Source of the DNA: a virus
Lineage: Duplodnaviria > Heunggongvirae > Uroviricota > Caudoviricetes
Virus record (IMG/VR): IMGVR_UViG_2541047865_000002
Reading direction: 5' to 3' (one strand)
DNA length: 27,464 nucleotides
Below the pieces are notes generated by a model. It did not search any database. It saw nothing but the letters and a program-made list of their open reading frames with translations, and had not been told where the DNA came from. Position 1 is the stretch's first letter. Each line of letters begins with the position of its first letter. Made by a program: the position numbers and the translations under genes. Shown in pieces: positions 5,584 to 22,245 of this stretch.

Positions 5584-6365
5584 GCTGCCACCTTCTGCTC
5601 AGTGGCTTTCTGTTTCAGGAATCCAAGAGCTTTCACTGCTTCGGCCTGTGTCAGTTCTGACGATGCGCGAATGTCGCGGCGAAATATCTGGGAACAGAGC
5701 GGCAATAAGTCGTCATCCCATGTTTTATCCAGGGCGATCAGCAGAGTGTTAATCTCCTGCATGGTTTCATCGTTAACCGGAGTGATGTCGCGTTCCGGCT
5801 GACGTTCTGCAGTGTATGCAGTATTTTCGACAATGCGCTCGGCTTCATCCTTGTCATAGATACCAGCAAATCCGAAGGCCAGACGGGCACACTGAATCAT
5901 GGCTTTATGCCGTAACATCCGTTTGGGATGCGACTGCCACGGTCCGGTGATTTCTCTGCCTTCGCGGGTTTTGAATGGTTCGCGGCGGCATTCATCCATC
6001 CACTCGGTAACGCAGATCGGATGATTGCGGTCTTTGCGGTAAATCCGGCATGTGCAGGATTCGTTGTCCTGTTCAAAGTCCATGCCGTCAAACTGCTGGT
6101 TTTCGTTGATGATGCGGGACCAGCCATCAACGCCCACCACCGGAACGATGCCGTTCTGCTTATCAGGGAAGGCGTAAATTTCTTTCGTCCACGGATTAAG
6201 ACCGTACTGGTTGGCGACGATCAGCAATGCGATGAACTGCGCATCGCTGGCATCACCTTTAAATGCCGTCTGGCGAAGAGTGGTGATCAGTTCCTGTGGG
6301 TCGACAGAATCCATGCCGACTCGTTCAGCCAGCTTCCCAGCCAGCGTTGCGAGTGCTGTACTCAT
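5580..6365 (-). CDS. bet: Lambda Bet (Red-beta) single-strand annealing protein, 261 aa
   Basis: Near-identical to lambda Bet as recalled ([66 protein letters not shown]...). Confidence 0.97.
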
Positions 6366-6370
6366 CCGTT

Positions 6371-6667
6371 TTATACCTCTGAATCAATATCAACCTGGTG
6401 GTGAGCAATGGTTTCAACCATGTACCGGATGTGTTCTGCCATGCGCTCCTGAAACTCAACATCGTCATCAAACGCACGGGTAATGGCTTTTTTGCTGGCC
6501 CCGTGGCGTTGCAAATGATCGATGCATAGCGATTCAAACAGGTGCTGGGGCAGGCCTTTTTCCATGTCGTCTGCCAGTTCTGCCTCTTTCTCTTCACGGG
6601 CGATCTGCTGGTAGTGACGCACCCAGCTCTGAGCCTCAAGACGATCCTGAATGTAATAAGCGTTCAT
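6371..6667 (-). CDS. gam: Lambda Gam (RecBCD inhibitor), 98-aa short form
   Basis: [60 protein letters not shown]... matches the lambda GamS region. Confidence 0.92.
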
Positions 6668-6742
6668 GGCTGAACTCCTGAAAATGGCTGTGAAAATATC
6701 GCCCGCGAAATGCCAGGCTGATTAGAAAAACAGGAAAGGGGA

Positions 6743-6949
6743 TTAGTGATTCAGGCCGTTGCCGCGTCCGTCGAGAAAAACTTCCACGAGCAAGTCACGG
6801 GTATAAGTGCGCTCGATGCCGCGATGCAGATAAAGCCGTCCGCGTAAATTAGCTGATGCAGTCCAGGTACCATCTTTGTGTTTGACCAGCATTCCTGGCA
6901 TGACCGCACCGCGATTAACGGTCTGCGTTCCGTAATGTTGATGAACCAT
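6743..6949 (-). CDS. Hypothetical small protein (68 aa) in the position occupied by kil in lambda
   Basis: ORF immediately downstream of gam in the leftward operon; sequence does not match lambda Kil or CIII as I recall them; an alternative overlapping frame (6751..6984) looks less protein-like. Confidence 0.4.
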   Translation of the reverse strand: MVHQHYGTQTVNRGAVMPGMLVKHKDGTWTASANLRGRLYLHRGIERTYTRDLLVEVFLDGRGNGLNH

Positions 6950-7227
6950 AAAAACTCCTGCCCGTAAGCTGGGCTGCTGAACAAATGAGGGGTTGCGCAG
7001 TATCTGGCGGTGGATGGCCGCCGGTTGTCATAACTAAGCCGCCTTGTTGAAGCGACTGAGGTATGAGGTGTTGAGTTGATTTCAGCTGGTCACACCGACG
7101 TTCACGCGTCCGTTTCACCCCTCGCACTCCCCGGAGCCTGCTGAAATTCAAGCTGCGGATCTAAGCGGTCATCGCAACGGTGAATCAGGTGGTTGCCGTA
7201 TCGTTGTGTTGTTGCGATGAACTTATT

Positions 7228-7300
7228 TAAAACTATAGTTGTTTTATCGTCAACAACAAAAGTTGTTTTATTGGTTGTTTTAGATATAACTGGTTGTATT
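7228..7300. promoter_or_regulatory. Putative OL/pL operator-promoter region with repeated GTTGTT / AACAAC half-sites
   Basis: GTTGTT(7238..7243)...AACAAC(7252..7257)...GTTGTT(7262..7267), TGGTTGTT(7272..7279), CTGGTTGT(about 7291); same half-site family as at OR; lies between the cI terminator and the leftward early genes. Confidence 0.45.
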
Positions 7301-7390
7301 TAGGATGGATTTATTTTGTGACTTGAATCGCATAGCGATAACTGAAGCGAGGTTATGGTGGTTTTTTTAACGGTGTGTGATGAGGGGAGG

Positions 7391-7420
7391 GCAAAAGAAA
7401 ACCCGGCACGGTGACCGGGA
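7391..7420 (-). terminator. Intrinsic terminator downstream of cI (leftward)
   Basis: On the minus strand: hairpin CCCGG-TCACCGTG-CCGGG followed by TTTTCTTTT; about 120 nt downstream of the cI stop. Confidence 0.5.
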
Positions 7421-7540
7421 TTCTTACGCCGTTAGGTAAAGATATTATTGCGGTGGCTTAATATTACTACCTAGAGCAAAGATAGGAATTAGTTCTTTAC
7501 TGAATGAGCACAATGCCCAGTTGATAATTTTTAATTGGTA

Positions 7541-8230
7541 CTACCCATGCTTCCTATATGTCTGCGGCATGCTCCCAATAACCTTACCGAAGATGAACAC
7601 CCGGTTCATCTCGTCTTTCTCGATCGGGTCCCACGGTGAGTAGCTTTTGTTATCAGAGATGACCAGCAGCTTATCCTTCATCATTTGCAGGCGCTTTACA
7701 TGGGCTGTGTCGTCGTACAGAAACGCATAGATACCATCACCGTCGAAAGATTTAACAGTGATATCAACGAACAGCAGATCACCTGGTTCGATCGTTCCTG
7801 ACATGCTGTCACCACGCACGTTAATGATGCGGATATTTTCCGCCTTCCTACCATCGAACATGTGACGAGCATCGTCAAACGAGTACTCAACCGAGCGTAG
7901 AACTTCTACAAACTCACGGTTGATGACTCCCGGCCCAGCACTGACTTCTATATCAAGAACGTCAATCTTGAAGTATTTGGAATGGCTGACAGTTGATTGT
8001 ATTGGTTGCACTGTACTGTCTGACATATTTCCAATGCCAGAAGATAACCATTCTGCGCGCACACCCAAAGCGTTCGCGATCTCCACGATTTTAGTTGTTT
8101 GGTTAGCTTTCCCTGTTTCGATTTTCTGAATAGCAGCCTGGCTAACCCCAACCAAATCCCCAAGTGCCTTTTGTGTAAGGCCTCGCGCTAATCTGGCTTC
8201 TTTAAGTCTTTCTGAGAGTGTTGTTTTCAT
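7541..8230 (-). CDS. cI: CI-like prophage repressor: N-terminal XRE-type HTH plus C-terminal S24 (LexA-like) autopeptidase domain, 229 aa; likely leaderless start at 8230
   Basis: HTH segment LTQKALGDLVGVSQAAIQKIETGK; S24 motifs NVRGDSMSGTIEPGDLLFVD and AHVKRL (Ser/Lys dyad); the start chosen at MKTTLSERL lies inside the operator region, as with lambda pRM transcripts. Confidence 0.85.
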   Translation of the reverse strand: MKTTLSERLKEARLARGLTQKALGDLVGVSQAAIQKIETGKANQTTKIVEIANALGVRAEWLSSGIGNMSDSTVQPIQSTVSHSKYFKIDVLDIEVSAGPGVINREFVEVLRSVEYSFDDARHMFDGRKAENIRIINVRGDSMSGTIEPGDLLFVDITVKSFDGDGIYAFLYDDTAHVKRLQMMKDKLLVISDNKSYSPWDPIEKDEMNRVFIFGKVIGSMPQTYRKHG

Positions 8231-8243
8231 AGACCAAATGTAC

Positions 8244-8310
8244 AACCAAGGTTTTATTTCATCAAACGAAAATGGTTGTTGACTAAAAACAACCATAGTT
8301 TTAATCTTGG
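8244..8310. promoter_or_regulatory. Putative OR / pRM-pR operator-promoter region
   Basis: 9-bp inverted repeat ATGGTTGTT-GACTAAA-AACAACCAT (8272..8296), plus AACCAAGG (about 8244) and CTTGGTT (about 8306) half-site-like elements between the divergent cI and cro. Confidence 0.5.
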
Positions 8311-8334
8311 TTCAGATTAACCACGGAGGTTGTT

Positions 8335-8565
8335 ATGAACCCAGCAATCAAAACAGCGATCAATATAGTTGGTTCACAAAAGAAATTGGGCGATGCCTGC
8401 GAAGTTTCACAGCAGGCCGTCTATAAGTGGCTTCACAACAAAGCAAAGGTATCCCCTGAACATGTCGGCAGCATTGTTACGGCTACTGGTGGAGTTGTGA
8501 AGGCGTACCAGATTCGCCCGGATCTTCCGAAGTTGTTTCCACACACCGAAAAGAACGCAGCTTAA
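8335..8565 (+). CDS. cro: Cro-like repressor (YdaS/Cro family HTH), 76 aa
   Basis: Divergent from cI across the operator region; strong SD (GGAGG) 7 nt upstream; YdaS-like pattern GSQKKLGDACEVSQQAVYKW...TGGVVKAYQIRPDL. Confidence 0.8.
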   Translation: MNPAIKTAINIVGSQKKLGDACEVSQQAVYKWLHNKAKVSPEHVGSIVTATGGVVKAYQIRPDLPKLFPHTEKNAA

Positions 8566-8577
8566 ATTTCCATTTCA

Positions 8578-8623
8578 CGCTCTTTAACAATAAGCAATCA
8601 ACTTAACAGACTGATTAACAGTC
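8578..8623 (+). promoter_or_regulatory. nutR-like element: boxA (CGCTCTTTAACA) followed by a boxB-like hairpin GACTG-ATTAA-CAGTC
   Basis: boxA 8578..8589 matches the lambdoid boxA consensus CGCTCTT(T)A; a 5-bp stem with 5-nt loop lies 19 nt downstream (8609..8623), between cro and the cII-position gene. Confidence 0.35.
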
Positions 8624-8646
8624 AATTCAAACTAAAGGAATCAATT

Positions 8647-9087
8647 ATGCAACCAATTACATACCAACAGACTAGCGGATTTACCCCGACTGCGGTGATA
8701 AATCGTTCTCAAACAAAACAGGCGCCAGGCCACGAAAAAATCCGTGATGCCGTTCGCGCCTGGTCGGCTGCAGATAATCAGGATGTTGTTGCCGCACTCA
8801 TTGTGAATGAGTATCGGGAGCTGGGCGGCGGCACCATCGATTTCCCTGATGATGTCAGCCGTGCACGCCAGAAGTTGTTCCGCTTCCTCGATAACAAATT
8901 CGATTCTGAAAAATACCGAAATAACCTGCGTGAACTGACCCCGGCAATTCTGGCGGTACTACCGCTGGAATATCGCGGCCACCTGGTTGAGCAGGATAGC
9001 TTCATGGCTCGGCTGGTTGAAATGGAAAAGGAACTCAGTGAGGCAAAGCAGGCGGTCATTCTCAACGCACCACGCACCAGAAACTGA
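8647..9087 (+). CDS. YdaT-family protein in the cII position (CII functional analogue), 146 aa
   Basis: Follows the YdaS-like cro as in Rac-type immunity regions; SD AAGGA upstream; the family assignment is from memory of YdaT-like proteins. Confidence 0.65.
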   Translation: MQPITYQQTSGFTPTAVINRSQTKQAPGHEKIRDAVRAWSAADNQDVVAALIVNEYRELGGGTIDFPDDVSRARQKLFRFLDNKFDSEKYRNNLRELTPAILAVLPLEYRGHLVEQDSFMARLVEMEKELSEAKQAVILNAPRTRN

Positions 9088-9271
9088 AGGAAATGAGTGA
9101 AGGTATTGTGTCGATGTTTCGCGTGGACCCGGATCTGGCTGGTCCATTAATGGCGATGGTTACCACCATGCTGGGGGCAATATGACAGGTTCAGAAATGG
9201 CGAAAGTCGGTCTGCGGGAACAGAACCGACTTTCAGGTGCAAATCGTAACGCACTCATTACGGGAGGAATT

Positions 9272-10201
9272 ATGGCAAACACTGCTGAGATATTCAATTT
9301 TCCAGTGCCGGATGTGGCACAAAAGGAGCCGCGCGTGGCAGATCTCGATGATGGTTATACGCGCATTGCAAATGAGTTGCTGGAAGTTGTAATGCTGGCC
9401 GGATTAACACAGCACCAGCTTCTGGTCTTCCTGGCTGTCATGCGCAAAACATATGGCTTTAATAAAAAACTGGATTGGGTGAGCAACGAGCAACTTTCCG
9501 AGTTAACCGGGATATTGCCGCACAAGTGTTCTGCTGCAAAAAGTGTTCTGGTAAAGCGTGGGATTTTAATTCAGAGCGGGCGGAATATCGGCATCAATAA
9601 TGTGGTCAGTGAATGGTCAACATTACCCGAATCAGGTAAGAAAAATAAAGTTTACCTGAAAGAGGTAAATTTACCTGAATCAGGTAAGAAAAGTTTACCT
9701 AAATCAGGTAAACGCCTTTACCCGAATCAGGTAAACACAAAAGACAAACTAACAAAAGACAATATAAAACCTTTTTCGTCAGAGAATTCTGGCGAATCCT
9801 CTGACCAGCCAGAAAACGATCTTCCTGTGGTGAAACCGGATGCTGCAATTCAGAGCGGCAGCAAGTGGGGGACAGCAGAAGACCTGACCGCCGCAGAGTG
9901 GATGTTTGACATGGTGAAGACCATCGCGCCATCAGCCAGAAAACCGAATTTTGCAGGGTGGGCTAACGATATCCGCCTGATGCGTGAACGTGACGGACGT
10001 AACCACCGCGACATGTGTGTACTGTTCCGCTGGGCATGCCAGGACAACTTCTGGTCCGGTAACGTGCTGAGTCCGGCCAAACTCCGCGACAAGTGGACCC
10101 AGCTCGAAATCAACCGAAACAAGCAACAGGCTGGCGTGACAGCCGGCAAACCAAAACTCGACCTGACGAACACTGACTGGATTTACGGGGTGGAGCTATG
10201 A
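9272..10201 (+). CDS. O: Replication initiator O (lambda O-like), containing the ori iterons; start set at the ATG with the strong SD GGGAGGA (the upstream in-frame ATG at 9182 is less likely)
   Basis: N-terminal region VADLDDGYTRIANELLEVVMLAGLTQHQLLVFLAVMRKTYGFNKK resembles lambda O; C-terminal domain lambda-like; stop overlaps the P start. Confidence 0.9.
   Translation: MANTAEIFNFPVPDVAQKEPRVADLDDGYTRIANELLEVVMLAGLTQHQLLVFLAVMRKTYGFNKKLDWVSNEQLSELTGILPHKCSAAKSVLVKRGILIQSGRNIGINNVVSEWSTLPESGKKNKVYLKEVNLPESGKKSLPKSGKRLYPNQVNTKDKLTKDNIKPFSSENSGESSDQPENDLPVVKPDAAIQSGSKWGTAEDLTAAEWMFDMVKTIAPSARKPNFAGWANDIRLMRERDGRNHRDMCVLFRWACQDNFWSGNVLSPAKLRDKWTQLEINRNKQQAGVTAGKPKLDLTNTDWIYGVEL
9623..9734. repeat. 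ori: Origin of replication iterons: five roughly 17-bp repeats TTACC(C/T)(G/A)AA(T/A)(C/G)AGGTAA, followed by an AT-rich segment
   Basis: Repeats at 9623, 9652, 9671, 9695 and 9718 inside O, then an A/T-rich run at 9735..9775, as in ori-lambda. Confidence 0.85.
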
Positions 10202-10899
10202 AAAACATCGCCGCACAGATGGTTAACTTTGACCGTGAGCAGATGCGCCGGATCGCCAACAACATGCCGGAACAGTACGACGAAAAGCCGCAGGTACAAC
10301 AGGTAGCGCAGATCATCAATGGTGTGTTCAGCCAGTTACTGGCAACTTTCCCGGCGAGCCTGGCTAACCGGGACCAGAACGAACTGAACGAAATCCGCCG
10401 CCAGTGGGTGCTGGCTTTCCGGGAAAACGGGATCACCACAATGGAACAGGTTAACGCAGGAATGCGCGTAGCCCGTCGGCAGAATCGACCATTCCTGCCA
10501 TCACCCGGGCAGTTTGTTGCCTGGTGCCGGGAAGAAGCATCCGTTAACGCCGGGCTGCCAAACGTCAGCGAGCTGGTTGATATGGTCTATGAGTATTGTC
10601 GGAAGCGTGGCCTGTATCCGGATGCAGAGTCTTATCCGTGGAAATCAAACGCGCACTACTGGCTGGTTACCAACCTGTACCAGAACATGCGGGCCAATGC
10701 GCTTACTGATGCGGAATTACGGCGCAAGGCTGCCGATGAACTGACTTGTATGACCGCGCGAATTAACCGTGGTGAGGCGATACCTGAACCAGTAAAACAA
10801 CTTCCTGTCATGGGCGGTAGACCTCTAAATCGTGCACAGGCTCTGGCGAAGATCGCAGAAATCAAAGCGAAGTTCGGACTGAAAGGAGCAACTGTATGA
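10198..10899 (+). CDS. P: Replication protein P (DnaB helicase loader), 233 aa
   Basis: Near-identical to lambda P as recalled (MKNIAAQMVNFDREQMRRIANNMPEQYDEKPQVQQVAQIINGVF...). Confidence 0.97.
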   Translation: MKNIAAQMVNFDREQMRRIANNMPEQYDEKPQVQQVAQIINGVFSQLLATFPASLANRDQNELNEIRRQWVLAFRENGITTMEQVNAGMRVARRQNRPFLPSPGQFVAWCREEASVNAGLPNVSELVDMVYEYCRKRGLYPDAESYPWKSNAHYWLVTNLYQNMRANALTDAELRRKAADELTCMTARINRGEAIPEPVKQLPVMGGRPLNRAQALAKIAEIKAKFGLKGATV

Positions 10900-11177
10900 C
10901 GGGCAAAGAGGTAATTATTCATTATCTGGAGACGCACAAGAGCTTCTGTGCGCAGGACGTTGCTGCGGCAACAGGTGTGACAGTAACCTGCATAAATCAG
11001 GCAGCAGCTAAAATGGCGCGGGCAGGAATCCTGGTCATTGATGGTAAGGTCTGGCGAACGGTGTATTACCGGTTCGCTACCAGAGAAGAACGGGAAGGAA
11101 AGGTGAGCACGAACCTGATTTTTAAGGAGTGCCGCCAGAGTGCCGCGATGAAGCGGGTGTTGGCGGTATATGGGTGA
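10896..11177 (+). CDS. ren: Ren (Rex exclusion protection protein), 93 aa
   Basis: MTGKEVIIHYLETHKSFCAQDVAAATGVTVTCINQAAAKMARAGILVIDGKVWRTVYYRFATREEREGK... matches lambda Ren; start overlaps the P stop. Confidence 0.9.
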   Translation: MTGKEVIIHYLETHKSFCAQDVAAATGVTVTCINQAAAKMARAGILVIDGKVWRTVYYRFATREEREGKVSTNLIFKECRQSAAMKRVLAVYG

Positions 11178-11590
11178 TTAGTTATTACTTGATTTGATGG
11201 TTATCTCGAAAACATCCAATCAAATTTAATGGTTTGCTTTGTGCGGGGAACTATAACAATGTTTCTAGCTTGGTGCTGTATGAATTAGTGAATTAGTAGG
11301 GAATATATCCACACATTGATTAACACAAAAATATTTTAGATATTAAATGTAACTCAAAGGATGAGTAATAATGGTTGTGTAGCGTATAACAGGATGCTGA
11401 GGTAGTATTAAACAATGAATAAATCTGATTGACAAGCACCAGATAATACTGCGGGTCAATCATTAGACATGAACGCCACTAGTTACTGAGAGTAACTAAT
11501 GGCGTTGTGTTTATAGTTAAGATGTTTTTTAAAACATCAGGGGGGCTCTACTTGTCTTTTTTAATATGATCAATCTCATCATTAAGACAT

Positions 11591-13096
11591 TTATCTATTT
11601 TTTTTTATTAACACATTAATTTCTTCGGTGTTTTGGAGTTGAGTTGTCTTAGAAACAAAAACTCGAATAAAGAATTTAACATAGTGATAGGGTTGAAGTA
11701 CATCGTTATACTTACATAAATCATTTATTGTATACTTGCCGCCTGTTTCTTTTTTTATTATTTTAGCTTGACTTGTATCGATATCTTTAAAGTTATCTTC
11801 AATCTGAAAATCAAGAACCCATTCATCTCCTTTTAAATTATCCTCAATGATTTTGTTGATTTTCTTAGATATATTTTGTTTATATTCTTTGTATCTGTTG
11901 TCGGAAATGTTAACATTAGAAAACGTGTGTTTTTTTTCATATATTTTTTTCCAAACATTTCTATCAACAATATCTTGAATTATAGCTTGAGAATTTTTAT
12001 CTAATGTGTTTTTAAGAGTGTTTTCTAAAAACGTTTTGTCTGGGTTTTCACGATAAAAGTGTTTGATGGACTCAATGAGAGTGTTTTTAGATTTTAAAGA
12101 GACAACATCATCAGTTTTTTTTCTAGAACACGCTTTGTTAAGCATCGCAGATAGTGCACGATTGGTCTTATGAAAATAAACTTGACTATAAAGCCCACTT
12201 CTTGCATTGGCAAATTCTAGTATTGAATCCATACCACTTTCTTTATATGCCAGGTAAACACTATTTTCAACTTTCACAGGAATAAATGACATTAATAATC
12301 GTCCATAATCATAAATCCCATATTTAACGCCGGAGAAGTAGCTATCTCTAAGTAGGTAGTCCATTCTGTCCGCATCTATAGGTGAAGATGATATGATTGA
12401 ACCTAATAAAGGATATACATTTACTCCCTCAATGTTATTTTTAAAATCATATCTTTTATCAACAATTTTTATAATGCTTTCTGGATTAATAGCCGCTATG
12501 TTTTCTTTATAGACATCGTCGTCATTTGATTTATCTTGGGCTTCATTTTTTAATTCTTCAATAATTTCTTTAATAAAAATACATGATACTTGTTCGTGGG
12601 TTAACTTGTCATTATCACTTAAAGATATAATCTTATCGTATTGTTTATTTCCTTCAGTTTTGCATTTTTCTTTGAAATCTTTTACGGATATTGCAAAACT
12701 ATCGAATTGGTGGGCAAGTGGGCCATGCCCAACATCGTGTAACAATGCTGCAATACGTAACTCCTGTATAAGACTTGAAGGCATTTTTTTTATATCTAAA
12801 TATAGATCAATGCCCATATTTTTTCGATTGTAAATTAGTGCATTTAAATCAATATTTTTTAATATTTCATACGATAAATGCATTACACCGACAGAGTGTT
12901 CAAAGCGAGAGTGCATTGCAGAAGGAAATACTTTATATAGAAACGTGTTCTGCCTGATATCTCGTAGTCGTTGGAATAAAGGATGGTCAATTATCTTTTT
13001 TTCTAGCTTAGTTATTCGAATCACTCCATGTATGGGATCTAAAAACTTCCCCAGAAGTAAGTCTTCAAAGTTCTCAAGTTTGTTTTTGTTTGTCAT
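11591..13096 (-). CDS. HD-domain dNTP triphosphohydrolase-like protein (SAMHD1/dGTPase family), 501 aa; candidate anti-phage dNTP-depletion enzyme
   Basis: HD motifs HSRFEHSVGVMHLS, ALLHDVGHGPLAHQFD and DADRMDYLLRDSYFSGVKYG; SD AAGGAAAG upstream; in AT-rich cargo antisense to the phage operon. Confidence 0.8.
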   Translation of the reverse strand: MTNKNKLENFEDLLLGKFLDPIHGVIRITKLEKKIIDHPLFQRLRDIRQNTFLYKVFPSAMHSRFEHSVGVMHLSYEILKNIDLNALIYNRKNMGIDLYLDIKKMPSSLIQELRIAALLHDVGHGPLAHQFDSFAISVKDFKEKCKTEGNKQYDKIISLSDNDKLTHEQVSCIFIKEIIEELKNEAQDKSNDDDVYKENIAAINPESIIKIVDKRYDFKNNIEGVNVYPLLGSIISSSPIDADRMDYLLRDSYFSGVKYGIYDYGRLLMSFIPVKVENSVYLAYKESGMDSILEFANARSGLYSQVYFHKTNRALSAMLNKACSRKKTDDVVSLKSKNTLIESIKHFYRENPDKTFLENTLKNTLDKNSQAIIQDIVDRNVWKKIYEKKHTFSNVNISDNRYKEYKQNISKKINKIIEDNLKGDEWVLDFQIEDNFKDIDTSQAKIIKKETGGKYTINDLCKYNDVLQPYHYVKFFIRVFVSKTTQLQNTEEINVLIKKNR

Positions 13097-13455
13097 GAGG
13101 CTTTCCTTTTGCTGTAGTTATAATACGAAATTTAAATAGTAATGATGTTTATAGTTTCAATGTGTTATCTAATGGTTAACACATTGTGATGTAGCATATC
13201 AATATGGATTCATATGTTCAATTGGTCTGTGGAGTTTAGTTATGAATAAGATTGATTCTGGTAATACTTTGTAGTTTAAGCTAGAGGCGGGATTCGTGAT
13301 GTTCAAATCAGTATGTAATGGAGGTTGTGCATTAGTACTTGCTGCTGGAAATTAAAAATAAAGTTGCAAGTAATCGACGTTTTCCGAGAGGAGAATGTAA
13401 GCATCGCTGACCAAAAAGTATCAACGATGCCTGTTTTGTTTTAACTACAAATTAA

Positions 13456-13716
13456 TTAAATTGCATCTGCAAACTCTGGGATTTTTCGCTCAAGTATGAT
13501 TGATGAGTTGCTGTTGTCGCTTTTTTTATTTTCATGATTACGAATAGCCAATGACTCATTAAAGTCTTTTGCGACTGCTGTCTCAATAAATTCAATTTCT
13601 GAATCAGAGTGTTTTTTAACAGCTTCTTTGATCTCATCCAGAGTAACATAGAAAAACTCTTTTCTACGATTTACAAGATTGACTCTCTTTTTATCGAAGA
13701 CATCATGTAGTTTTTT
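13456..13716 (-). other. -1-frame continuation of the T5orf172 domain (LHDVFDKKRVNLVNRRKEFFYVTLDEIKEAVKKH...), entered at slippery heptamer A_AAA_AAC (13710..13716); either a programmed frameshift or a homopolymer frameshift mutation
   Basis: Manual translation: the domain's expected C-terminal motifs are open for 87 codons in the -1 frame starting exactly at a 7-A run; no ATG in that frame; the zero frame stops 17 codons later. Confidence 0.6.
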
Positions 13717-14957
13717 TCTAATGATGGAGCGTCCTCCGAATAAATCATGGCATGCACATCAAAAATAAAAGGAACAGATGCATCACCAAGCTCATTTACA
13801 CGGTCTTGTGGATCAAGACGTCGTGTCATGCCTATTTTATAAACATTCTCCCCAAAAGAACCTATGTTCGAAATAATATAAACATGACCTTGTTTGGTTT
13901 GTTGTGCCATGGATAATGCTCTTTGATGCTTTGATTCAGCCTGCGACAAACTCTGTTCTAGTTCGGCAATGCGATTTTCGAGGCGCTGCTTCATGTCACC
14001 AGTAACTTTTTCCATTTCCTTTCTTGCAGCTTCAATTGCTTTTTTATAACGGCGCTCTTCTGCCTCTGCGTCTTGCATGGCCTTTTCTATTTCTCGTTGT
14101 GCACGCTCCTCCTCTCTCATTTGTGCCCTTATTTCTGCCTGTTCTTCTTTTTCTTTCTGTTTTTGCTCACGATATTCATGGGTAAGCCACAACTCCTCAA
14201 GTTTTTTATTAAGGTATTTAGTATTTATATATATGTGATTTTGCTCGTTTAGTTTATTTATGGCCTCAAATGCCTTTGTGATGCGTTCTTCCATTTTAGT
14301 GATATTTTTCCACGTGCAATTACTAATTGCAGCATCACATTCATTATTAAATGCTCTAGTAGTTAGCCTAATATTTCTGTCTGTCATTTTTTTACCCTCT
14401 GCTCGAGAGCCTTCAACAGTCCATTGGGTTGTGCAATATACTGCACCAGAGTGGGTTTTATCCCGCAGCATTAATTTCTGTTCATCCCTGATGGATTTTA
14501 TTTTGTTTTTAAATTGCTCTGAATCTTCAAAATTAAAATGAGGTTCGTAAAATCCTAGTTCGGCTAGTTCAACATCTTCTGAATAAATAGAAATTTGCTT
14601 TACTAACTTATCATATATTTCTTTCTTCTCTTTATAAGTTCTTCTTAGTTCTTGGATTTGTTTATTGATACCATCCATTTTTTCAATGGTGTTTGTTAGT
14701 TCATTATTGGCATTTTCTTTTACTTTTTGGGACTCTTCTTTTATAATGGAGCATTCTTGCTCTGTTTTCTCAATAAGCTTCTTACATTCCTCTTCCACAT
14801 TAAAATAATCTGCAAAGCGAGATTTGTATTCTTCATTTTTTTGATTGCTATCACTTAATTCTAATTGTATTTTTTTGATGCGTTTGATTGCAGCTATATA
14901 TAGAACAAGAACAACCAATAAAAATATGATTGCAAGTAATAGTGGAGTTTGAGTCAT
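13671..14957 (-). CDS. Membrane-anchored coiled-coil protein with DUF4041 and the N-terminal part of a T5orf172 (GIY-YIG-like) domain; 428 aa in the zero frame
   Basis: N-terminal TM helix LLLAIIFLLVVLVLYIAAI; long coiled-coil (EERAQREIEKAMQDAEAEERRYKK...); DUF4041-like core; C-terminal GHVYIISNIGSFGENVYKIGMTRRLDPQDRVNELGDASVPFIFDVHAMIYSEDAPSLE; SD AAGGAA upstream. Confidence 0.85.
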   Translation of the reverse strand: MTQTPLLLAIIFLLVVLVLYIAAIKRIKKIQLELSDSNQKNEEYKSRFADYFNVEEECKKLIEKTEQECSIIKEESQKVKENANNELTNTIEKMDGINKQIQELRRTYKEKKEIYDKLVKQISIYSEDVELAELGFYEPHFNFEDSEQFKNKIKSIRDEQKLMLRDKTHSGAVYCTTQWTVEGSRAEGKKMTDRNIRLTTRAFNNECDAAISNCTWKNITKMEERITKAFEAINKLNEQNHIYINTKYLNKKLEELWLTHEYREQKQKEKEEQAEIRAQMREEERAQREIEKAMQDAEAEERRYKKAIEAARKEMEKVTGDMKQRLENRIAELEQSLSQAESKHQRALSMAQQTKQGHVYIISNIGSFGENVYKIGMTRRLDPQDRVNELGDASVPFIFDVHAMIYSEDAPSLEKNYMMSSIKRESIL

Positions 14958-15383
14958 TCGTGCTATTCCTTACGGACAATTTAAGACGTTTTGTATTAAA
15001 TCCTGTTCAATGTGTATGCGGGTGATTGCTACCGCTTACAATCTTCATAATTATCAGTTAGATAGACTCGCTAGTAAATAATTTCATTTTTTGCAATATT
15101 CTTATTGAATATTTCAATTTATGAAATGAGCTCTTTATCCTTTCAAGGCGAAAGGTTTCTTCTTCGGAAATATTTGCTCTCGTGTGACGTATAAAGGCCT
15201 TTGATTTTTAAAAAACAGTAGGAAATAATATAGTTACTGTCGGCCTGAACACCCGGCGGTGGGGTTGCGCTAAACGGGGACGTTTATGCGCACATACAAT
15301 CTAAACTCTCTTCTCCCTTCACAGATGCAGAAATGCACCTGCGATTTTTTGCATCCAACGTTTGACCTCTGCGGAGGTGAAGC

Positions 15384-15839
15384 ATGAACCTACCACAAGA
15401 TGGCATCAAATTACATCGTGGCAACTTCACCGCTATCGGCCAGCAGATCCAGCCTTATCTGGAGGACGGAAAATGCTTTCGCATGGTGCTTAAACCGTGG
15501 CGTGAGAAACGCAGTCTTTCCCAGAGTGCACTCAGCCACATGTGGTACAGCGAAATCAGTGAATACCTTATCAGCAGGGGTAAAACGTTCGCCACTCCAG
15601 CTTGGGTAAAAGATGCTCTCAAACACACATATCTCGGTTATGAAACCAAAGACCTGGTTGATGTCGTAACCGGTGATATCACCACTATCCAGTCGTTACG
15701 CCATACCTCCGACCTTGATACCGGAGAGATGTATGTCTTCCTGTGTAAGGTTGAAGCCTGGGCGATGAATATTGGCTGCCACCTGACTATTCCGCAGAGC
15801 TGCGAGTTCCAGCTGCTGCGTGATAAGCAGGAGGCGTAA
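15384..15839 (+). CDS. ybcN: YbcN-like nin-region protein (DLP12 ybcN homologue), 151 aa
   Basis: Protein recalled as DLP12 YbcN; first gene of a tightly overlapping nin block. Confidence 0.85.
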
Positions 15840-16009
15840 TGGCTACACCGCTTATTCGTGTCATGAACGGACACATCTACAAAATACCAAATCGTCGTAA
15901 GCGTAGGCCTGAGCTGAAACCATCCGAAATACCAACACTGCTCGGATATACCGCCAGCCTGGTTGATAAAAAATGGTTGCGACTGGCAGCAAGGAGGAAT
16001 CATGGCTGA
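15839..16009 (+). CDS. ninE: NinE-like protein, 56 aa
   Basis: Manual translation [56 protein letters not shown]; ATG overlaps the ybcN stop (TAATG) and its stop overlaps the ybcO start. Confidence 0.75.
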   Translation: MATPLIRVMNGHIYKIPNRRKRRPELKPSEIPTLLGYTASLVDKKWLRLAARRNHG

Positions 16010-17406: not shown

Positions 17407-17931
17407 TTATTGTTTAACCCATAATAATTCATTGACATTGAATCCCAACTTTTGAGCGGTTCGCACATAGTCTGCTTTTACTTTATCTGGAATAGTTGGG
17501 GTCCTTGCCAGAATCCATAGGTATTCTCTGTTCGGACCACTGACAAGAGCATACTTATACTCATCATCCAGTTTGATTACATTATAGCCACCATAGAAGG
17601 GGCCAAAAAACGAAACCTTCAACGCTGCAGTTTTAGTATCTCCAGTAAAGTATGCTTTACCTTCGCTCTCGCTCCATTTATTTTTCGTTGGATCGTATCC
17701 ACGGTTAAGTACACGAATCCCTCCGTCGTTCCGTTTTCCATAAGTAGCGCTGACCTGTTCCAGACCACGTTCGAATCGGTTCTCGAGGCGAGCTATTTCA
17801 TACCACTTTCCGAGGTAGCGGTTGGCGTCAAAATTTGTAATCGGCTGCACACCTTTAGGTGGTGTCGGGACCTTACATGCTATAAGAGTGAAAGAGAGTG
17901 CAATGCCAGTCAACACAGGCCATAACTTCAT
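17407..17931 (-). CDS. Blc-like bacterial lipocalin, outer-membrane lipoprotein, 174 aa
   Basis: Signal peptide with lipobox (LIAC); strong similarity to E. coli Blc as recalled (FDANRYLGKWYEIARLENRFERGLE...SEGKAYFTGDTKTAALKVSFFGPFYGGYNVI...YLWILARTP). Confidence 0.85.
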   Translation of the reverse strand: MKLWPVLTGIALSFTLIACKVPTPPKGVQPITNFDANRYLGKWYEIARLENRFERGLEQVSATYGKRNDGGIRVLNRGYDPTKNKWSESEGKAYFTGDTKTAALKVSFFGPFYGGYNVIKLDDEYKYALVSGPNREYLWILARTPTIPDKVKADYVRTAQKLGFNVNELLWVKQ

Positions 17932-18123
17932 AATAAATCCTGTACTTTTGATAGTTGAGAGTAAGTATGAAAGATAGATGATTACGACCGATCACTTAAA
18001 GAACTTTCATACTATATTAGGAATAGTCCATAACAGAAAAATTGTCAGTGATGACGCCAGAAAGGCAATTTATTCCGTGCACTACACAGTTTATGTGTTA
18101 ATGAATTAGTCAAGGGGGAGGAT

Positions 18124-19083
18124 ATGATAAAAAAACCTGTGATTGGAATCAGCGGTTGTCTGGCCGGTTCTGCTGTTCGTTTTGATGGTGGTCACAAAAG
18201 AGCTGACTTTTTAATGGACAAATTAGTGGAATGGGTAACATTCAGACCAGTATGTCCGGAAATGGCTATAGGGCTGCCAGTTCCGCGTCCTGCTCTACGT
18301 CTTGTGCGCTCGACGCAAGGAAATATACGGATGTGTTTCAGCCACGACCAGAATGAGGATGTGACAGAGAGAATGACAGAGTTTAGTCGTTCTTATATGG
18401 ACAAATTAAAGGATGTATCGGGGTTTGTGGTTTGTGCTAAATCTCCCAGCTGTGGCATGGAGCGCGTGCGTGTCTATGATGAAAATGGTAATCGAGGTCG
18501 TAAAGATGGAGTGGGACTATTTACGAGCACTTTGATGGAAAAGTTTTCCTGGCTACCGGTTGAAGAGGATGGGCGATTACATGATCCAGTGCTTCGTGAG
18601 AATTTTGTTGAAAGAGTTTTTGCTTTGCATGAGCTCAATCACCTTTACAAGGAGAAATTATCAAGAAGAGAGTTATTAGCTTTTCATAGTCGTTATAAGC
18701 TTCAGTTGTTGGCGCATAGTCAGGCAGGCTATAAAGATATGGGACCATTTGTGGCTGCAATACACGAGTGGGCGGACCTTGAATCATACTTTGAGGTGTA
18801 TCGTGATAAGCTGATGGCGATTCTCAGAAAACCTGCATCACGTAAAAATCACACGAATGTGCTGATGCATATACAGGGGTATTTTAGTAACTACTTAAGT
18901 ACACGCCAGCGTAAAGAGTTGAGCGAGGTTATACTTAACTATCGTTCTGGCACATTACCTCTTCTTGCGCCGTTGACTCTGCTGAAGCATTATCTGGGTG
19001 AGTATCCTAATGATTACTTGCTTACACAGAATTACTTCGATCCCTATCCGGACGAACTGGCTCTAAGACTGATGGTAAATTAA
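18124..19083 (+). CDS. DUF523 (TudS-like, putative Fe-S thiouracil desulfidase) plus DUF1722 (YbgA-like) fusion protein, 319 aa
   Basis: N-terminal VIGISGCLAGSAVRFDGGHK with conserved Cys residues (C12, C44, C104/C109); C-terminal YbgA-like half; strong SD GGGGGAGGA. Confidence 0.75.
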   Translation: MIKKPVIGISGCLAGSAVRFDGGHKRADFLMDKLVEWVTFRPVCPEMAIGLPVPRPALRLVRSTQGNIRMCFSHDQNEDVTERMTEFSRSYMDKLKDVSGFVVCAKSPSCGMERVRVYDENGNRGRKDGVGLFTSTLMEKFSWLPVEEDGRLHDPVLRENFVERVFALHELNHLYKEKLSRRELLAFHSRYKLQLLAHSQAGYKDMGPFVAAIHEWADLESYFEVYRDKLMAILRKPASRKNHTNVLMHIQGYFSNYLSTRQRKELSEVILNYRSGTLPLLAPLTLLKHYLGEYPNDYLLTQNYFDPYPDELALRLMVN

Positions 19084-19425: not shown

Positions 19426-20160
19426 GTGGATAATATGCCATACATATGTTCTATCATTTTGGTGTTGAACTCGTTTGATGTCCGAATTGGTAAAGAAGAT
19501 ATTTTATTTAAAAAAGGAAGTGCTGTTCTCATTGATTACAATTTAAAAGATTTTTTTTCATCAAATATAGATCATGCAATGATCGTAGATGTTGAAGAGA
19601 AAACAGTTAATGATTTCTTTAAAAGCAACACACTCTCACCTTTTTCTGTAAGAAGGTTTTATCCGGCATACTTGATGGTGGAATGTGAAGATTTTTCATT
19701 GTTAAAGAACTTGATTGCATGCTTGAATTGTGATGGCAGAACTGTGGATTTTGTTAGAAATCAAATATCACTTGCATGTCTTGCTATCTTATCTTCAGAG
19801 AAAATAGTGCAAAGTTTTTTATTTGGATGTCTTAATAGTTTAGGAAGTAAAGTTAAGGCTATTATTCACACGGATATATCTGCAGCATGGAGACTTTGTG
19901 ATATATCTTCAAGACTGTATCTGAGTGAAAGTCTGTTAAAAAGAAAATTAAAGCACGAAGGCTTATCATTTAGTAAGTTAATTCTTGAAGAGCGAATGGT
20001 GATGGCGGAAAGGTTATTAAGCTACAATTTATATTCTGTTGGAAAAGTTACTGAGATATGCGGTTATGAAAACACGTCATATTTTGTAAGTGTTTTCAGA
20101 AGATATTTTGGTGTTCCTCCCCATCAATATTCATCAAGATTTTTTTTAGAAAAGACATGA
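19426..20160 (+). CDS. AraC/XylS-family transcriptional regulator, 244 aa
   Basis: C-terminal double HTH (…ERLLSYNLYSVGKVTEICGYENTSYFVSVFRRYFGVPPHQY); gene is visibly AT-rich with rare-codon flavour, suggesting horizontal acquisition. Confidence 0.85.
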   Translation: MDNMPYICSIILVLNSFDVRIGKEDILFKKGSAVLIDYNLKDFFSSNIDHAMIVDVEEKTVNDFFKSNTLSPFSVRRFYPAYLMVECEDFSLLKNLIACLNCDGRTVDFVRNQISLACLAILSSEKIVQSFLFGCLNSLGSKVKAIIHTDISAAWRLCDISSRLYLSESLLKRKLKHEGLSFSKLILEERMVMAERLLSYNLYSVGKVTEICGYENTSYFVSVFRRYFGVPPHQYSSRFFLEKT

Positions 20161-20987: not shown

Positions 20988-21017
20988 TGATCCTACCCAC
21001 GTAATATGGACACAGGC

Positions 21018-21884
21018 CTAAGCGAGGTTCTGGTTTTCAAATTGTTCCGGACTGAGGCCGCCACACCAACTGTGCCGCCGCCACCGATTGTAATCACATT
21101 CGATATAATTAAACACCGTTGCCCGCATTATTTCCCGGCTGATAAAGTGTTCTCCATGGATACATTCCACTTTCAGCGAATGAAAGAAGCTTTCCACGCA
21201 GGCATTATCGTAGCAGCAACCTTTTGCGCTCATACTTCCACGCAGATTATGCCGCTTCAGTTGCGCCTGATAATCTGCTGAACAGTACTGGCCTCCACGG
21301 TCCGTGTGAACGATAACGTTCCGGGGCCTCTTACGCCGCCACAGCGCCATCTGCAGGGCATCGCAGGCCAGTTGCGCCGTCATGCGTGGCGACATTGACC
21401 AGCCAATAACGGCACGTGACCACAGGTCAATGACCACTGCCAGATACAGCCAGCCTTCATCTGTACGTAAGTACGTGATGTCTCCTGCCCACTTCTGGTT
21501 CGGGCCACTGGCGTAAAAATCCTGCTCCAACAGATTTTCTGACACAGGCAGGCCGTGTGCGCGGTAGCTGACCGGGCTGAACTTCCGGGAGGCCTTTGCC
21601 CTCAGTCCCTGACGGCGCAGGCTTGCCGCCACGGTTTTTACGTTAAAGGGGTAACCCTGAGCACGCAGTTCATCCGTCAGGCGTGGGGCACCGTAACGCT
21701 GTTTTGACCGGGTAAAAGCCGCGAGGACAACGCTGTCGCAGTGTTGGCGGAACTGCTGACGCGTGCTTATCCTTGTCCGCCGCTGACACCACGTATACCA
21801 GCCGCTGCGGGCCACCCGGAGCACGCGGCACATTGCTTTGATGCTGAACTCAGCCTGATGTTTTTCAATAAAGACATACTTCAT
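21018..21884 (-). CDS. insF: IS3 transposase OrfB (DDE integrase domain), 288 aa
   Basis: [36 protein letters not shown]... matches IS3 InsF; start overlaps the orfA stop (AAATGA). Confidence 0.95.
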
Positions 21885-22180
21885 TTCAGGCGCTTCGCGA
21901 AGTATGTCGCGGCCTTTTGGAGGATAGCCAGCTCTTCATCCCGTTCTGCCAGCTGGCGTTTGAGACGTGCAATCTCGGTAGACATCTCCAGTTCACGTTC
22001 AGAAGACGTCTGCTGATTTTGCTGTTTACTGCGCCAGTTGTAGAGCTGTGATTCATACAGGCTGAGTTCACGGGCTGCGGCAGTAACACCGATGCGTTCA
22101 GCAAGCTTCAGGGCTTCACTGCGAAATTCAGGCGAATGCTGTTTACGGGGTTTTTTACTGGTTGATACTGTTTTTGTCAT
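21881..22180 (-). CDS. insE: IS3 transposase OrfA (HTH), 99 aa
   Basis: [54 protein letters not shown]... matches IS3 InsE. Confidence 0.9.
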
Positions 22181-22245
22181 GTGAGTCACCTCTGACTGAG
22201 AGTTTACTCACTTAGCCGCGTGTCCACTATTGCTGGGTAAGATCA

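What the first reader, a model, noticed from the sequence alone, without database searches (positions are those of the whole stretch)
13700..13720. Frame break inside the nuclease-like domain coincides with a canonical -1 slippery heptamer A_AAA_AAC
In the zero frame the ORF reads ...APSLEKNYMMSSIKRESIL and stops at 13671. Shifting by -1 at the 7-A run (GAA AAA AAC, 13710..13718 on the minus strand) gives ...LEKN LHDVFDKKRVNLVNRRKEFFYVTLDEIKEAVKKH..., the expected continuation of the T5orf172 domain, open for 87 more codons to a stop at 13456..13458. A_AAA_AAC is a textbook X_XXY_YYZ slippery site, and the zero-frame stop lies 17 codons downstream. Three explanations fit: programmed -1 frameshifting giving a truncated and a full-length isoform, a homopolymer slip mutation (A8 to A7) inactivating the nuclease, or a sequencing error.
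Basis: seen in the sequence. Interest (0 to 1): 0.7.

Follow-up and report, generated by a model that had tools for sequence, protein, structure and literature searches.

The report
Frameshift-inactivated SNIPE phage-defence nuclease gene
One A has been lost from a run of eight A's in a known prophage anti-phage nuclease gene (SNIPE / PD-lambda-1), which cuts its nuclease domain in half; this is an ordinary, naturally circulating knock-out mutation, not a programmed frameshift.

Summary
On the minus strand, a 7-A run (13711-13717) breaks the reading frame of a 500-codon gene (13456-14957). The zero frame stops at 13671-13673, and the -1 frame carries the rest of the nuclease domain.

The gene is SNIPE / PD-lambda-1, a membrane-anchored GIY-YIG nuclease characterised in Nature 2026. 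It sits in a lambdoid prophage of E. coli UMEA 3052-1. The run starts inside the codon of the catalytic Glu414.

- **One-base deletion:** putting one A back gives a gene 1503/1503 nt identical to an intact allele. Of 131 complete E. coli genomes with the gene, 130 do not carry this A7 allele, and every one inspected has A8. All 80 homologues from other species read straight through with no A-run there.
- **Heptamer explained:** A_AAA_AAC is the automatic residue of deleting one A from GAA AAA AAA CTA.
- **No programmed signal:** there is no downstream structure and no conservation, and the heptamer is weak in E. coli.
- **Not a sequencing error:** the exact truncated product occurs on at least 24 contigs from independent isolates and metagenomes, and A7 arose a second time on another haplotype (TB354).
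- **Decaying prophage:** the same prophage carries an IS3-linked deletion and further frameshifted genes.

Verdict: a real homopolymer-slip loss-of-function allele. Low-level accidental read-through is possible but untested.

The parts
13456..14957 (-). SNIPE / PD-lambda-1 gene, a frameshifted allele (1502 nt instead of 1503). It encodes a membrane-anchored DUF4041 + GIY-YIG (T5orf172) anti-phage nuclease.
   Evidence: With one A restored, PADLOC PD-Lambda-1 gives E 1.3e-198 over residues 1-485. Pfam finds DUF4041 and T5orf172/MUG113. The restored gene is 1503/1503 nt identical to the intact gene of NZ_AP022107.1. Nine residues named in PMC13190303 match its numbering.
13671..14957 (-). Zero-frame ORF of 428 aa: native residues 1-415, then 13 out-of-frame residues (NYMMSSIKRESIL) and TAA at 13671-13673.
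   Evidence: The exact product is EQW37156.1 / WP_021553452.1 of E. coli UMEA 3052-1.
13711..13717 (-). A7 homopolymer, the site of the one-base deletion (A8 in intact alleles).
   Evidence: Loci L001, L002, L003 and L005 have A8. The window and L004, L006-L015 have A7.
13710..13716 (-). A_AAA_AAC heptamer in zero-frame phasing. It is a by-product of the deletion and the same motif as the IS1 frameshift site.
   Evidence: Sequence. PMC4066793 rates the motif as low efficiency in E. coli and lists the A_AAA_AAC IS cluster as a proven frameshifting case without an established stimulator.
13716..13718 (-). GAA codon of the catalytic Glu414. E414A abolishes defence and nuclease toxicity.
   Evidence: Codon coordinates. 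The E414A result is from PMC13190303. The Glu is invariant in 80/80 homologues.
13456..13710 (-). -1-frame continuation: residues 417-500, which are the C-terminal half of the GIY-YIG core plus the tail, then TAA at 13456-13458. Not translated in the zero frame.
   Evidence: tblastn of the intact protein splits into frame -1 (residues 1-415) and frame -3 (residues 413-500).
13612..13889 (-). T5orf172 / GIY-YIG nuclease domain (residues 357-449), split by the frameshift after residue 415.
14202..14366 (-). DUF4041 (SNIPE-associated) domain, residues 198-252. Intact.
   Evidence: Pfam PF13250, E 1e-19.
14886..14945 (-). N-terminal hydrophobic segment (PLLLAIIFLLVVLVLYIAAI), the membrane anchor of SNIPE.
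   Evidence: Read directly from the translation. The topology was shown experimentally in PMC13190303. No transmembrane predictor was run here.

Best explanation
The frame break is a real replication-slippage mutation. One A was lost from an A8 run (GAA AAA AAA CTA to GAA AAA AAC TAC) in the SNIPE / PD-lambda-1 defence gene of a lambdoid prophage in E. coli UMEA 3052-1.

Normal translation yields a 428-aa protein. It keeps the membrane anchor, DUF4041, the linker helix and the N-terminal half of the GIY-YIG nuclease up to the catalytic Glu414. It lacks the C-terminal half of the nuclease fold. Because nuclease activity is required for defence, the allele is most likely a null or near-null pseudogene.

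- **Shown:** the slippery heptamer is a consequence of the deletion.
- **Shown:** the allele is inherited in a prophage lineage, and A7 has arisen at least twice.
- **Inferred, not tested:** loss of function. At most an inferred few tenths of a percent of ribosomes (PMC4066793: between >0.10% and about ten times a 0.055% background for heptamers without a stimulator) would slip accidentally to make full-length SNIPE(K416N).
For: 1. **E. coli alleles are contiguous.** 131 of 5426 complete E. coli genomes carry the gene. Only TB354 matches the A7 query exactly. All 59 other listed hits span one extra base, and the unlisted ones are below 100% identity. In an even sample of 60 of the 131, 54 span 1503 nt as a single CDS.
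2. **Single-base difference.** The window gene plus one A equals the intact allele at 1503/1503 nt, so the event is a very recent one-base deletion.
3. **Other species.** All 80 homologous loci from other species cross the site in one frame. The motif L-E-x-x-L-H is conserved and there is no A-run longer than 5 there.
4. **Not an artefact.** The exact 428-aa product lies on at least 24 contigs (36 index blocks), including separate SRA runs and metagenome assemblies. All ten fetched copies are identical in the gene and share flanking markers. L008 has A7 with intact neighbouring genes.
5. **Second origin.** TB354 has A7 on a different haplotype (352C, 1438T, 1479A, as in the A8 strain HH45), together with an IS1 insertion in the same gene.
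6. **Other knock-outs.** Other alleles are disrupted by IS1, by IS5, and by an A7-to-A6 deletion near the 5' end.
7. **Decaying prophage.** An IS3 replaces the lysis-to-tail genes. ydaT (CC to C at 9075) and the HD gene (A8 to A9) are also shifted, against only 2 substitutions in 8 kb relative to L005.
8. **Functional context.** E414A abolishes defence (PMC13190303). The truncated ORF loses Pfam MUG113 profile positions 42-73.
9. **No frameshift stimulator.** The 70 nt after the heptamer fold at -12.8 kcal/mol with z -1.27. The genuine IS3 frameshift site in the same window gives -19.9 kcal/mol with z -2.59. Rfam finds nothing.
Against: - Loss of function is inferred from domain truncation and the published E414A result. 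This truncation itself was never assayed.
- The A7 allele persists in many samples, some in prophages that still carry lysis and terminase genes (L009, L010). It is therefore at least well tolerated, and a residual or altered function cannot be excluded.
- A_AAA_AAC is a proven natural -1 site in IS1, so some full-length product is plausible.
- The A7 carriers show no sequence variation downstream of the break. Selection on the -1 frame therefore cannot be measured.
Confidence: 0.88

Rival explanations
1. Compensated ('leaky') frameshift. The A7 allele is a hypomorph rather than a null. Ribosomes slip -1 on A_AAA_AAC as in IS1, or RNA polymerase adds an A. Enough full-length SNIPE (K416N or wild type) is made to matter biologically, for example low-cost residual defence.
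For: - The heptamer is in the correct phase.
- It is identical to the IS1 motif, which works without a known stimulator. PMC4066793 places A_AA.A_AA.C among motifs giving more than 0.10% frameshifting without a stimulator.
- The allele persists in many samples.
- Position 416 is variable among homologues (E, S, K, L, H and others), so K416N would probably be tolerated.
Against: - The same paper calls the motif low-efficiency in E. coli. Stimulator-free motifs reach at most about 10 times a 0.055% background.
- There is no downstream structure. The upstream GGAGG lies 16 nt away, outside the 10-14 nt window I recall from Larsen et al. 1994 (own knowledge), and it also occurs in intact alleles, where it encodes SED.
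- Efficient transcriptional slippage is associated with runs of nine A or T, eight in some organisms (PMC1088944). This run has 7.
- In the window's own prophage and in TB354, further disruptions accumulated: ydaT and HD frameshifts and an IS3 deletion in the window, IS1 within SNIPE in TB354. That fits relaxed selection.
Confidence: 0.07
2. Evolved programmed -1 ribosomal frameshifting that produces a truncated isoform and a full-length isoform in a set ratio.
For: Only the presence of an X_XXY_YYZ heptamer at the junction of two overlapping frames.
Against: - The arrangement is absent from 130 of 131 complete E. coli genomes and from 80 of 80 other species.
- The allele differs from an intact one by that single base, so there has been no time or selection to evolve a signal.
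- No stimulator was found.
Confidence: 0.01
3. Sequencing or assembly error in this draft genome: the true sequence has A8.
For: - The window has three frameshifting 1-nt indels against 2 substitutions in 8 kb relative to L005. That is an unusual ratio.
- Two of the three are in homopolymers.
Against: - The exact truncated protein is found on at least 24 contigs from different sources (NCBI, Logan SRA runs, ENA metagenomes) with consistent flanking haplotypes.
- The truncated YdaT (11 contigs) and the 501-aa HD variant (3 contigs) also recur.
- The complete genome TB354 has A7 as well.
Confidence: 0.02
4. Phase variation. The A8 tract over the catalytic Glu codon is a contingency switch that reversibly turns SNIPE off and on.
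For: - There were at least two independent A8-to-A7 events.
- A8 is the longest run in the gene.
- The neighbouring HD gene shows A7, A8 and A9 variants in nature (499, 515 and 501 aa).
- Defence genes carry costs that could favour switching.
Against: - Only 1 of 131 complete genomes is A7 at this site.
- Inactivation also occurs by irreversible routes such as IS1 and IS5.
- No A9 allele was seen at this site.
- The tract is absent from homologues in other species.
- An A8 run in a 35% G+C, Lys-rich gene is expected from composition alone.
Confidence: 0.03

Closest known systems
SNIPE (PD-lambda-1), the membrane-bound GIY-YIG nuclease that cleaves phage DNA during injection (Saxton et al., Nature 2026, PMC13190303)
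   Same: With one A restored, the protein matches the PADLOC PD-Lambda-1 profile at E 1e-198. It has the same N-terminal anchor, DUF4041, helix and GIY-YIG layout. All nine residues named in the paper sit at the same positions, including catalytic E414. It occupies the same kind of site in a lambdoid prophage, between ren and ninB/ybcN.
   Different: This copy has lost one A directly after the E414 codon. The zero-frame product ends 13 residues later and lacks residues 416-500 of the native protein.
IS1 insA-insB' programmed -1 frameshift at A_AAA_AAC
   Same: Identical heptamer in identical phasing. No known downstream stimulator. Low efficiency in E. coli (PMC4066793).
   Different: In IS1 the two-ORF arrangement and the motif are conserved, and the fusion protein is the transposase. 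Here the arrangement is a rare derived allele of a gene that is otherwise contiguous.
Frameshift pseudogenes at poly(A) tracts, and 'savior/compensated' indels (Atkins et al. 2016, PMC5009743; Baranov et al. 2005, PMC1088944)
   Same: A one-base indel in a homopolymer that is both a mutational hot spot and a potential slippage site. A small fraction of in-frame product is conceivable.
   Different: The documented rescues involve longer runs (about 8-9 or more A/T for transcription) or a demonstrated product. Here the run is 7 and nothing has been measured.
IS3 orfA-orfB programmed -1 frameshift (a copy lies in the same window, 20988-22244)
   Same: A -1 shift joining two overlapping frames.
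   Different: IS3 has its A_AAG motif (21914-21918) followed at once by a stable structure (-19.9 kcal/mol, z -2.59). The SNIPE site has no such structure (z -1.27).

Membership tests
SNIPE / PD-lambda-1 defence nuclease | Full-length similarity to the PD-Lambda-1 profile | tested here: met
   PADLOC PDLC03976: E 1.3e-198, residues 1-485 against profile positions 1-485 of 491, using the one-A-restored translation.
SNIPE / PD-lambda-1 defence nuclease | DUF4041 central domain | tested here: met
   Pfam PF13250, E 1e-19, residues 198-252.
SNIPE / PD-lambda-1 defence nuclease | C-terminal GIY-YIG (T5orf172) nuclease domain with catalytic Glu414, encoded in one frame | tested here: not met
   The Glu414 codon is present at 13716-13718, but the domain is split. 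The zero frame keeps only MUG113 profile positions 1-41 of 73. tblastn splits the match into two frames. This is a disrupted allele of the family, not a functional member.
SNIPE / PD-lambda-1 defence nuclease | N-terminal transmembrane anchor | not tested
   A 20-residue hydrophobic stretch (residues 5-24) is visible in the translation. No topology predictor was run.
SNIPE / PD-lambda-1 defence nuclease | Protects against lambda and other siphoviruses by cutting DNA during injection | not testable with these tools
   Needs plaque assays with the A7 allele.
Programmed -1 ribosomal frameshift site | X_XXY_YYZ heptamer in zero-frame phasing within an overlap of two ORFs | tested here: met
   A_AAA_AAC at 13710-13716. 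The zero-frame stop lies 13 codons downstream of AAC.
Programmed -1 ribosomal frameshift site | Two-frame arrangement and motif conserved among orthologues | tested here: not met
   130 of 131 complete E. coli genomes are not A7, and those inspected are A8 and contiguous. All 80 other species are contiguous with no A-run at the site.
Programmed -1 ribosomal frameshift site | Stimulatory element: a downstream hairpin or pseudoknot 5-9 nt away, or an upstream SD-like sequence 10-14 nt away | tested here: not met
   Downstream 50, 70, 90 and 117 nt give z -1.41, -1.27, -0.20 and -1.02. The only clean hairpin starts 41 nt downstream. GGAGG lies 16 nt upstream. The IS3 positive control gave z -2.59. 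Minimum-free-energy folding cannot see pseudoknots, so the test has limited power.
Programmed -1 ribosomal frameshift site | Detectable trans-frame protein product | not testable with these tools
   Needs western blot or mass spectrometry for the junction peptide SLEKNLHDVFDK.
Transcriptional-slippage recoding site | A or T run long enough for efficient RNA polymerase slippage (about 9, 8 in some organisms) | tested here: not met
   The run is 7 A. The threshold is taken from PMC1088944.
Phase-variable contingency locus (homopolymer switch) | Repeated independent ON/OFF length changes at the same tract, with both states common in populations | tested here: inconclusive
   At least two independent A7 origins, but A7 occurs in only 1 of 131 complete genomes. 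No A9 was seen at this site.

The most novel reading that the evidence does not exclude
The A8 tract, which starts inside the catalytic Glu414 codon of E. coli SNIPE alleles, could be a recurrently used off-switch. The A7 'off' allele would stay slightly leaky through IS1-like -1 slippage on A_AAA_AAC. That would give a low-dose membrane nuclease (K416N) that lowers cost or lets useful temperate siphoviruses in, while keeping some protection and an easy route back to A8.
Probability: 0.05. Interest if true: 0.5.

Novelty: already known. Interest (0 to 1): 0.12.

Why it matters
It matters mainly for annotation and interpretation. This locus should be called a frameshifted, probably inactive SNIPE / PD-lambda-1 gene. 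It is neither a recoding site nor a 428-aa 'DUF4041 protein'.

It also shows that a slippery heptamer at a frame break in an A-rich gene is what a homopolymer deletion leaves behind. On its own it is not evidence for programmed frameshifting.

A smaller point concerns SNIPE biology. In E. coli the gene is knocked out repeatedly by different routes: A-run slips, IS1 and IS5. Its longest A-run lies exactly at the catalytic Glu codon, and one such null allele circulates in many samples. This is relevant to anyone inferring defence repertoires from gene presence alone.

Tried and rejected
- **Sequencing error.** I first favoured this because the window has three frameshifting 1-nt indels against 2 substitutions in 8 kb relative to L005. 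I rejected it after exact-protein look-ups found the same truncated products in many independent assemblies.
- **Downstream stimulatory structure.** Folding of 50-201 nt windows gave nothing significant. My first positive control on the IS3 site used a wrong offset and gave z -0.33. With the correct start it gave z -2.59. The test works but is weak, and it is blind to pseudoknots.
- **Rfam scan of 13300-14100.** Only one chance-level hit: Toga_5_CRE, 14 bits against a gathering score of 120.
- **PDB sequence search with the nuclease domain.** No meaningful hit, so the catalytic residues other than E414 could not be mapped onto a solved structure.
- **Window-private differences across five loci.** The script missed the indels because gap placement inside homopolymers varies between alignments. 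I replaced it with direct pattern counts.
- **Phage collection.** Only one record carries the gene: PhiR26_1, annotated PD-lambda-1, with A8.
- **Not run.** Structure prediction (the tool does not accept the restored protein) and the large protein searches (not needed for the question).

Full report
**1. The observation**

On the minus strand the sequence reads ...GCT CCA TCA TTA GAA AAA AAC TAC ATG ATG TCT TCG ATA AAA AGA GAG TCA ATC TTG TAA.

- The homopolymer is exactly seven A's (13711-13717), followed by C at 13710.
- The zero-frame ORF (13671-14957, 428 aa) ends ...SLEKNYMMSSIKRESIL.
- The -1 frame, starting with CTA at 13708-13710, reads LHDVFDKKRVNLVNRRKEFFYVTLDEIKEAVKKH... and stays open to TAA at 13456-13458.
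- A_AAA_AAC (13710-13716) is in proper X_XXY_YYZ phasing.

**2. What the gene is**

- **Profile matches.** With one A restored, the 500-aa translation matches the PADLOC PD-Lambda-1 profile end to end (E 1.3e-198). Pfam finds DUF4041 (residues 198-252) and T5orf172/MUG113 (357-449).
- **Annotation in relatives.** RefSeq annotates close relatives as 'DUF4041' or 'SNIPE associated domain-containing protein'. Phage PhiR26_1 calls its copy PD-lambda-1.
- **Published function.** SNIPE is a membrane-anchored GIY-YIG nuclease that cleaves siphovirus DNA during injection. E414A abolishes both defence and the toxicity of the de-anchored protein (PMC13190303).
- **Same numbering as the paper.** All nine residues named there (E414, N250, L253, W257, E264, E223, K305, I308, T319) sit at the same positions here. 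This is essentially the characterised protein.
- **Where the break falls.** Glu414 is the GAA codon at 13716-13718, which is the codon that begins the A-run. The frame breaks two codons after the catalytic residue. It removes the C-terminal half of the nuclease core: the truncated ORF matches MUG113 only over profile positions 1-41 of 73.

**3. Where the window comes from**

- **Source strain.** The window is E. coli UMEA 3052-1 (GCA_000460035.1, KE701469.1). A 21,287-nt locus fetched from that record is found exactly at window 3671-24957.
- **Prophage context.** The gene lies in a lambdoid prophage integrated next to ybhC. It sits between ren/P/O and ybcN/ninE/rusA/Q, beside an HD-domain gene.

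**4. Orthologue comparison**

- **E. coli genomes.** Of 5426 complete E. coli genomes, 131 carry the gene. With a 101-nt query centred on the run, only TB354 is 100% identical. All 59 other listed hits span 102 nt (A8), and all unlisted hits are below 100% identity.
- **Even sample.** In an evenly spaced sample of 60 of the 131, 54 span 1503 nt as one CDS.
- **Single-base difference.** The window gene plus one A is 1503/1503 nt identical to the intact gene of strain WP5-S17-ESBL-11.
- **Other species.** In 80 homologous loci from other species (Vibrio, Shewanella, Bacteroidota, Planctomycetota, cyanobacteria and others), the region 341-472 aligns in one frame. The motif L-E-x-x-L-H is conserved. 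The codons at the site are, for example, GAG AAA GAG or GAA AAT GAA, with no run longer than five A's.

The ancestral and normal state is therefore a contiguous gene. The A8 tract is peculiar to the E. coli alleles. The heptamer is what remains when one A is removed from GAA AAA AAA CTA.

**5. Real mutation or artefact?**

I first suspected sequencing error. Relative to the near-identical prophage of strain 2018-11-3CC (L005), window 8000-16000 has only two substitutions but three frameshifting single-base indels:

- ydaT, CC to C at 9075 (146 aa instead of 179);
- the HD gene, A8 to A9 at 11598-11606 (501 aa instead of 515);
- SNIPE, A8 to A7.

The exact-sequence look-ups removed that suspicion.

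- **Recurrence of the products.** The 428-aa product occurs on at least 24 contigs (36 index blocks) from NCBI, Logan SRA assemblies and ENA metagenomes. The truncated YdaT occurs on 11 contigs and the 501-aa HD variant on 3.
- **Consistent haplotype.** Ten fetched A7 contigs are identical over the gene and share flanking markers with the window.
- **Order of events.** One of them (L008) has A7 together with an intact HD gene (515 aa) and intact YdaT (179 aa). The SNIPE deletion therefore came first, and the UMEA 3052-1 lineage accumulated further damage afterwards.
- **Large deletion.** That damage includes an IS3 (20988-22244) replacing everything from the lysozyme gene to tail gene T.
- **Second origin.** TB354 carries A7 on a different haplotype (352C, 1438T, 1479A). 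The A8 strain HH45 shares that haplotype. TB354 sits in a prophage only 98.4% identical to the window's, and it also has an IS1 insertion in the gene. This is best read as a second independent slip.
- **Other knock-outs of the gene.** These are IS1 (Evo1), IS5 (LP-26-E1-261) and an A7-to-A6 deletion near the 5' end (HH45 and two others).

**6. Is there any sign of programmed recoding?**

No.

- **Folding.** The 50, 70, 90 and 117 nt downstream fold no better than shuffled sequence (z -1.41, -1.27, -0.20, -1.02). The only clean hairpin begins 41 nt away.
- **Positive control.** The genuine IS3 frameshift site in the same window (A_AAG at 21914-21918) is followed at once by a structure of -19.9 kcal/mol with z -2.59.
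- **Known RNA families.** Rfam has nothing.
- **Upstream Shine-Dalgarno-like sequence.** A GGAGG lies 16 nt upstream, outside the stimulatory spacing as I recall it from the literature. It is also present in the intact alleles, where it encodes Ser-Glu-Asp.
- **Motif strength.** Sharma et al. (PMC4066793) describe A_AA.A_AA.C as low-efficiency in E. coli. It gives more than 0.10% without stimulators, against a 0.055% background, and stimulator-free motifs reach at most about ten times background. It is nevertheless the proven IS1 motif.
- **Transcriptional slippage.** Efficient slippage is associated with runs of nine A or T, eight in some organisms (PMC1088944).

A few tenths of a percent of full-length SNIPE(K416N) is therefore conceivable as an accident. 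Position 416 is variable among homologues. Nothing indicates that this has been selected.

**7. Mechanism and verdict**

- **Shown.** A one-base deletion in the longest A-run of an AT-rich (35% G+C) gene. The allele is inherited and recurrent. The heptamer is a by-product.
- **Inferred.** The 428-aa product retains the anchor, DUF4041 and half a nuclease domain, and cannot cleave DNA. The allele is a loss-of-function pseudogene in a decaying prophage.
- **Not excluded.** Biologically meaningful leakiness or reversible switching. I give these about 5-7% together.

The finding is real but ordinary. Its main value is correct annotation, plus a caution about reading slippery heptamers at homopolymer frame breaks.

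Noticed in passing
window 11591-13096 (-), A-run at 11598-11606: The neighbouring HD-domain gene (Pfam HD; weak PADLOC dGTPase hit, E 0.0015) has A9 where relatives have A8, giving a 501-aa protein instead of 515 aa. Other isolates carry 499-aa forms ending ...LIKK, as expected for an A7 run (P0019, P0020), although their DNA was not inspected. The 3' A-run therefore appears length-polymorphic in nature, and it rewrites the last 2-16 residues.
   Followed up: partly
window 8647-9087 (+), deletion at 9075: The ydaT-domain gene at the cII position has lost one C (CC to C). It is truncated to 146 aa instead of 179. The same truncated product is on 11 contigs in the public collection.
   Followed up: partly
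window 20988-22244: A complete IS3 copy (orfA 102-aa ORF, orfB 288 aa, on the minus strand) replaces about 12 kb of prophage, from the 3' end of the lysozyme gene to tail gene T. The prophage is therefore defective. The IS3 carries its own genuine programmed -1 site (A_AAG at 21914-21918) with a stable downstream structure (z -2.59).
   Followed up: partly
L009-L015, corresponding to window ~13007: Seven independent contigs carrying the A7 allele all stop matching the window at the same point, about 90 nt into the HD gene. This suggests an insertion (probably an IS) or a rearrangement in the HD gene of that sub-lineage.
   Followed up: no
window 19435-20160 (+), A-run at ~20150: The AraC-type HTH_18 gene downstream of Q has A4 where L005 has A5, which changes its last residues (gene calls of 241 aa here, 243 aa in L005 and 237 aa in L009-L013). 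The A4 state is shared by the A7-SNIPE contigs that reach this site, so it is a lineage marker rather than a private change.
   Followed up: partly
window 17410-19080: Between Q and the lysis genes the prophage carries cargo genes: a lipocalin (Blc-like, 174 aa) and a YbgA/DUF1722-family protein (319 aa). Related prophages carry a porin (OmpC/OmpD-like) at the same place instead.
   Followed up: no
L001 (HH45) 6144-7645; also 23AR0806 and OZ547223: Three complete genomes have SNIPE split near the 5' end and annotated as two CDSs. In HH45 the cause is loss of one base in an A-run at about nt 230 of the gene. This is another homopolymer knock-out of the same defence gene.
   Followed up: partly
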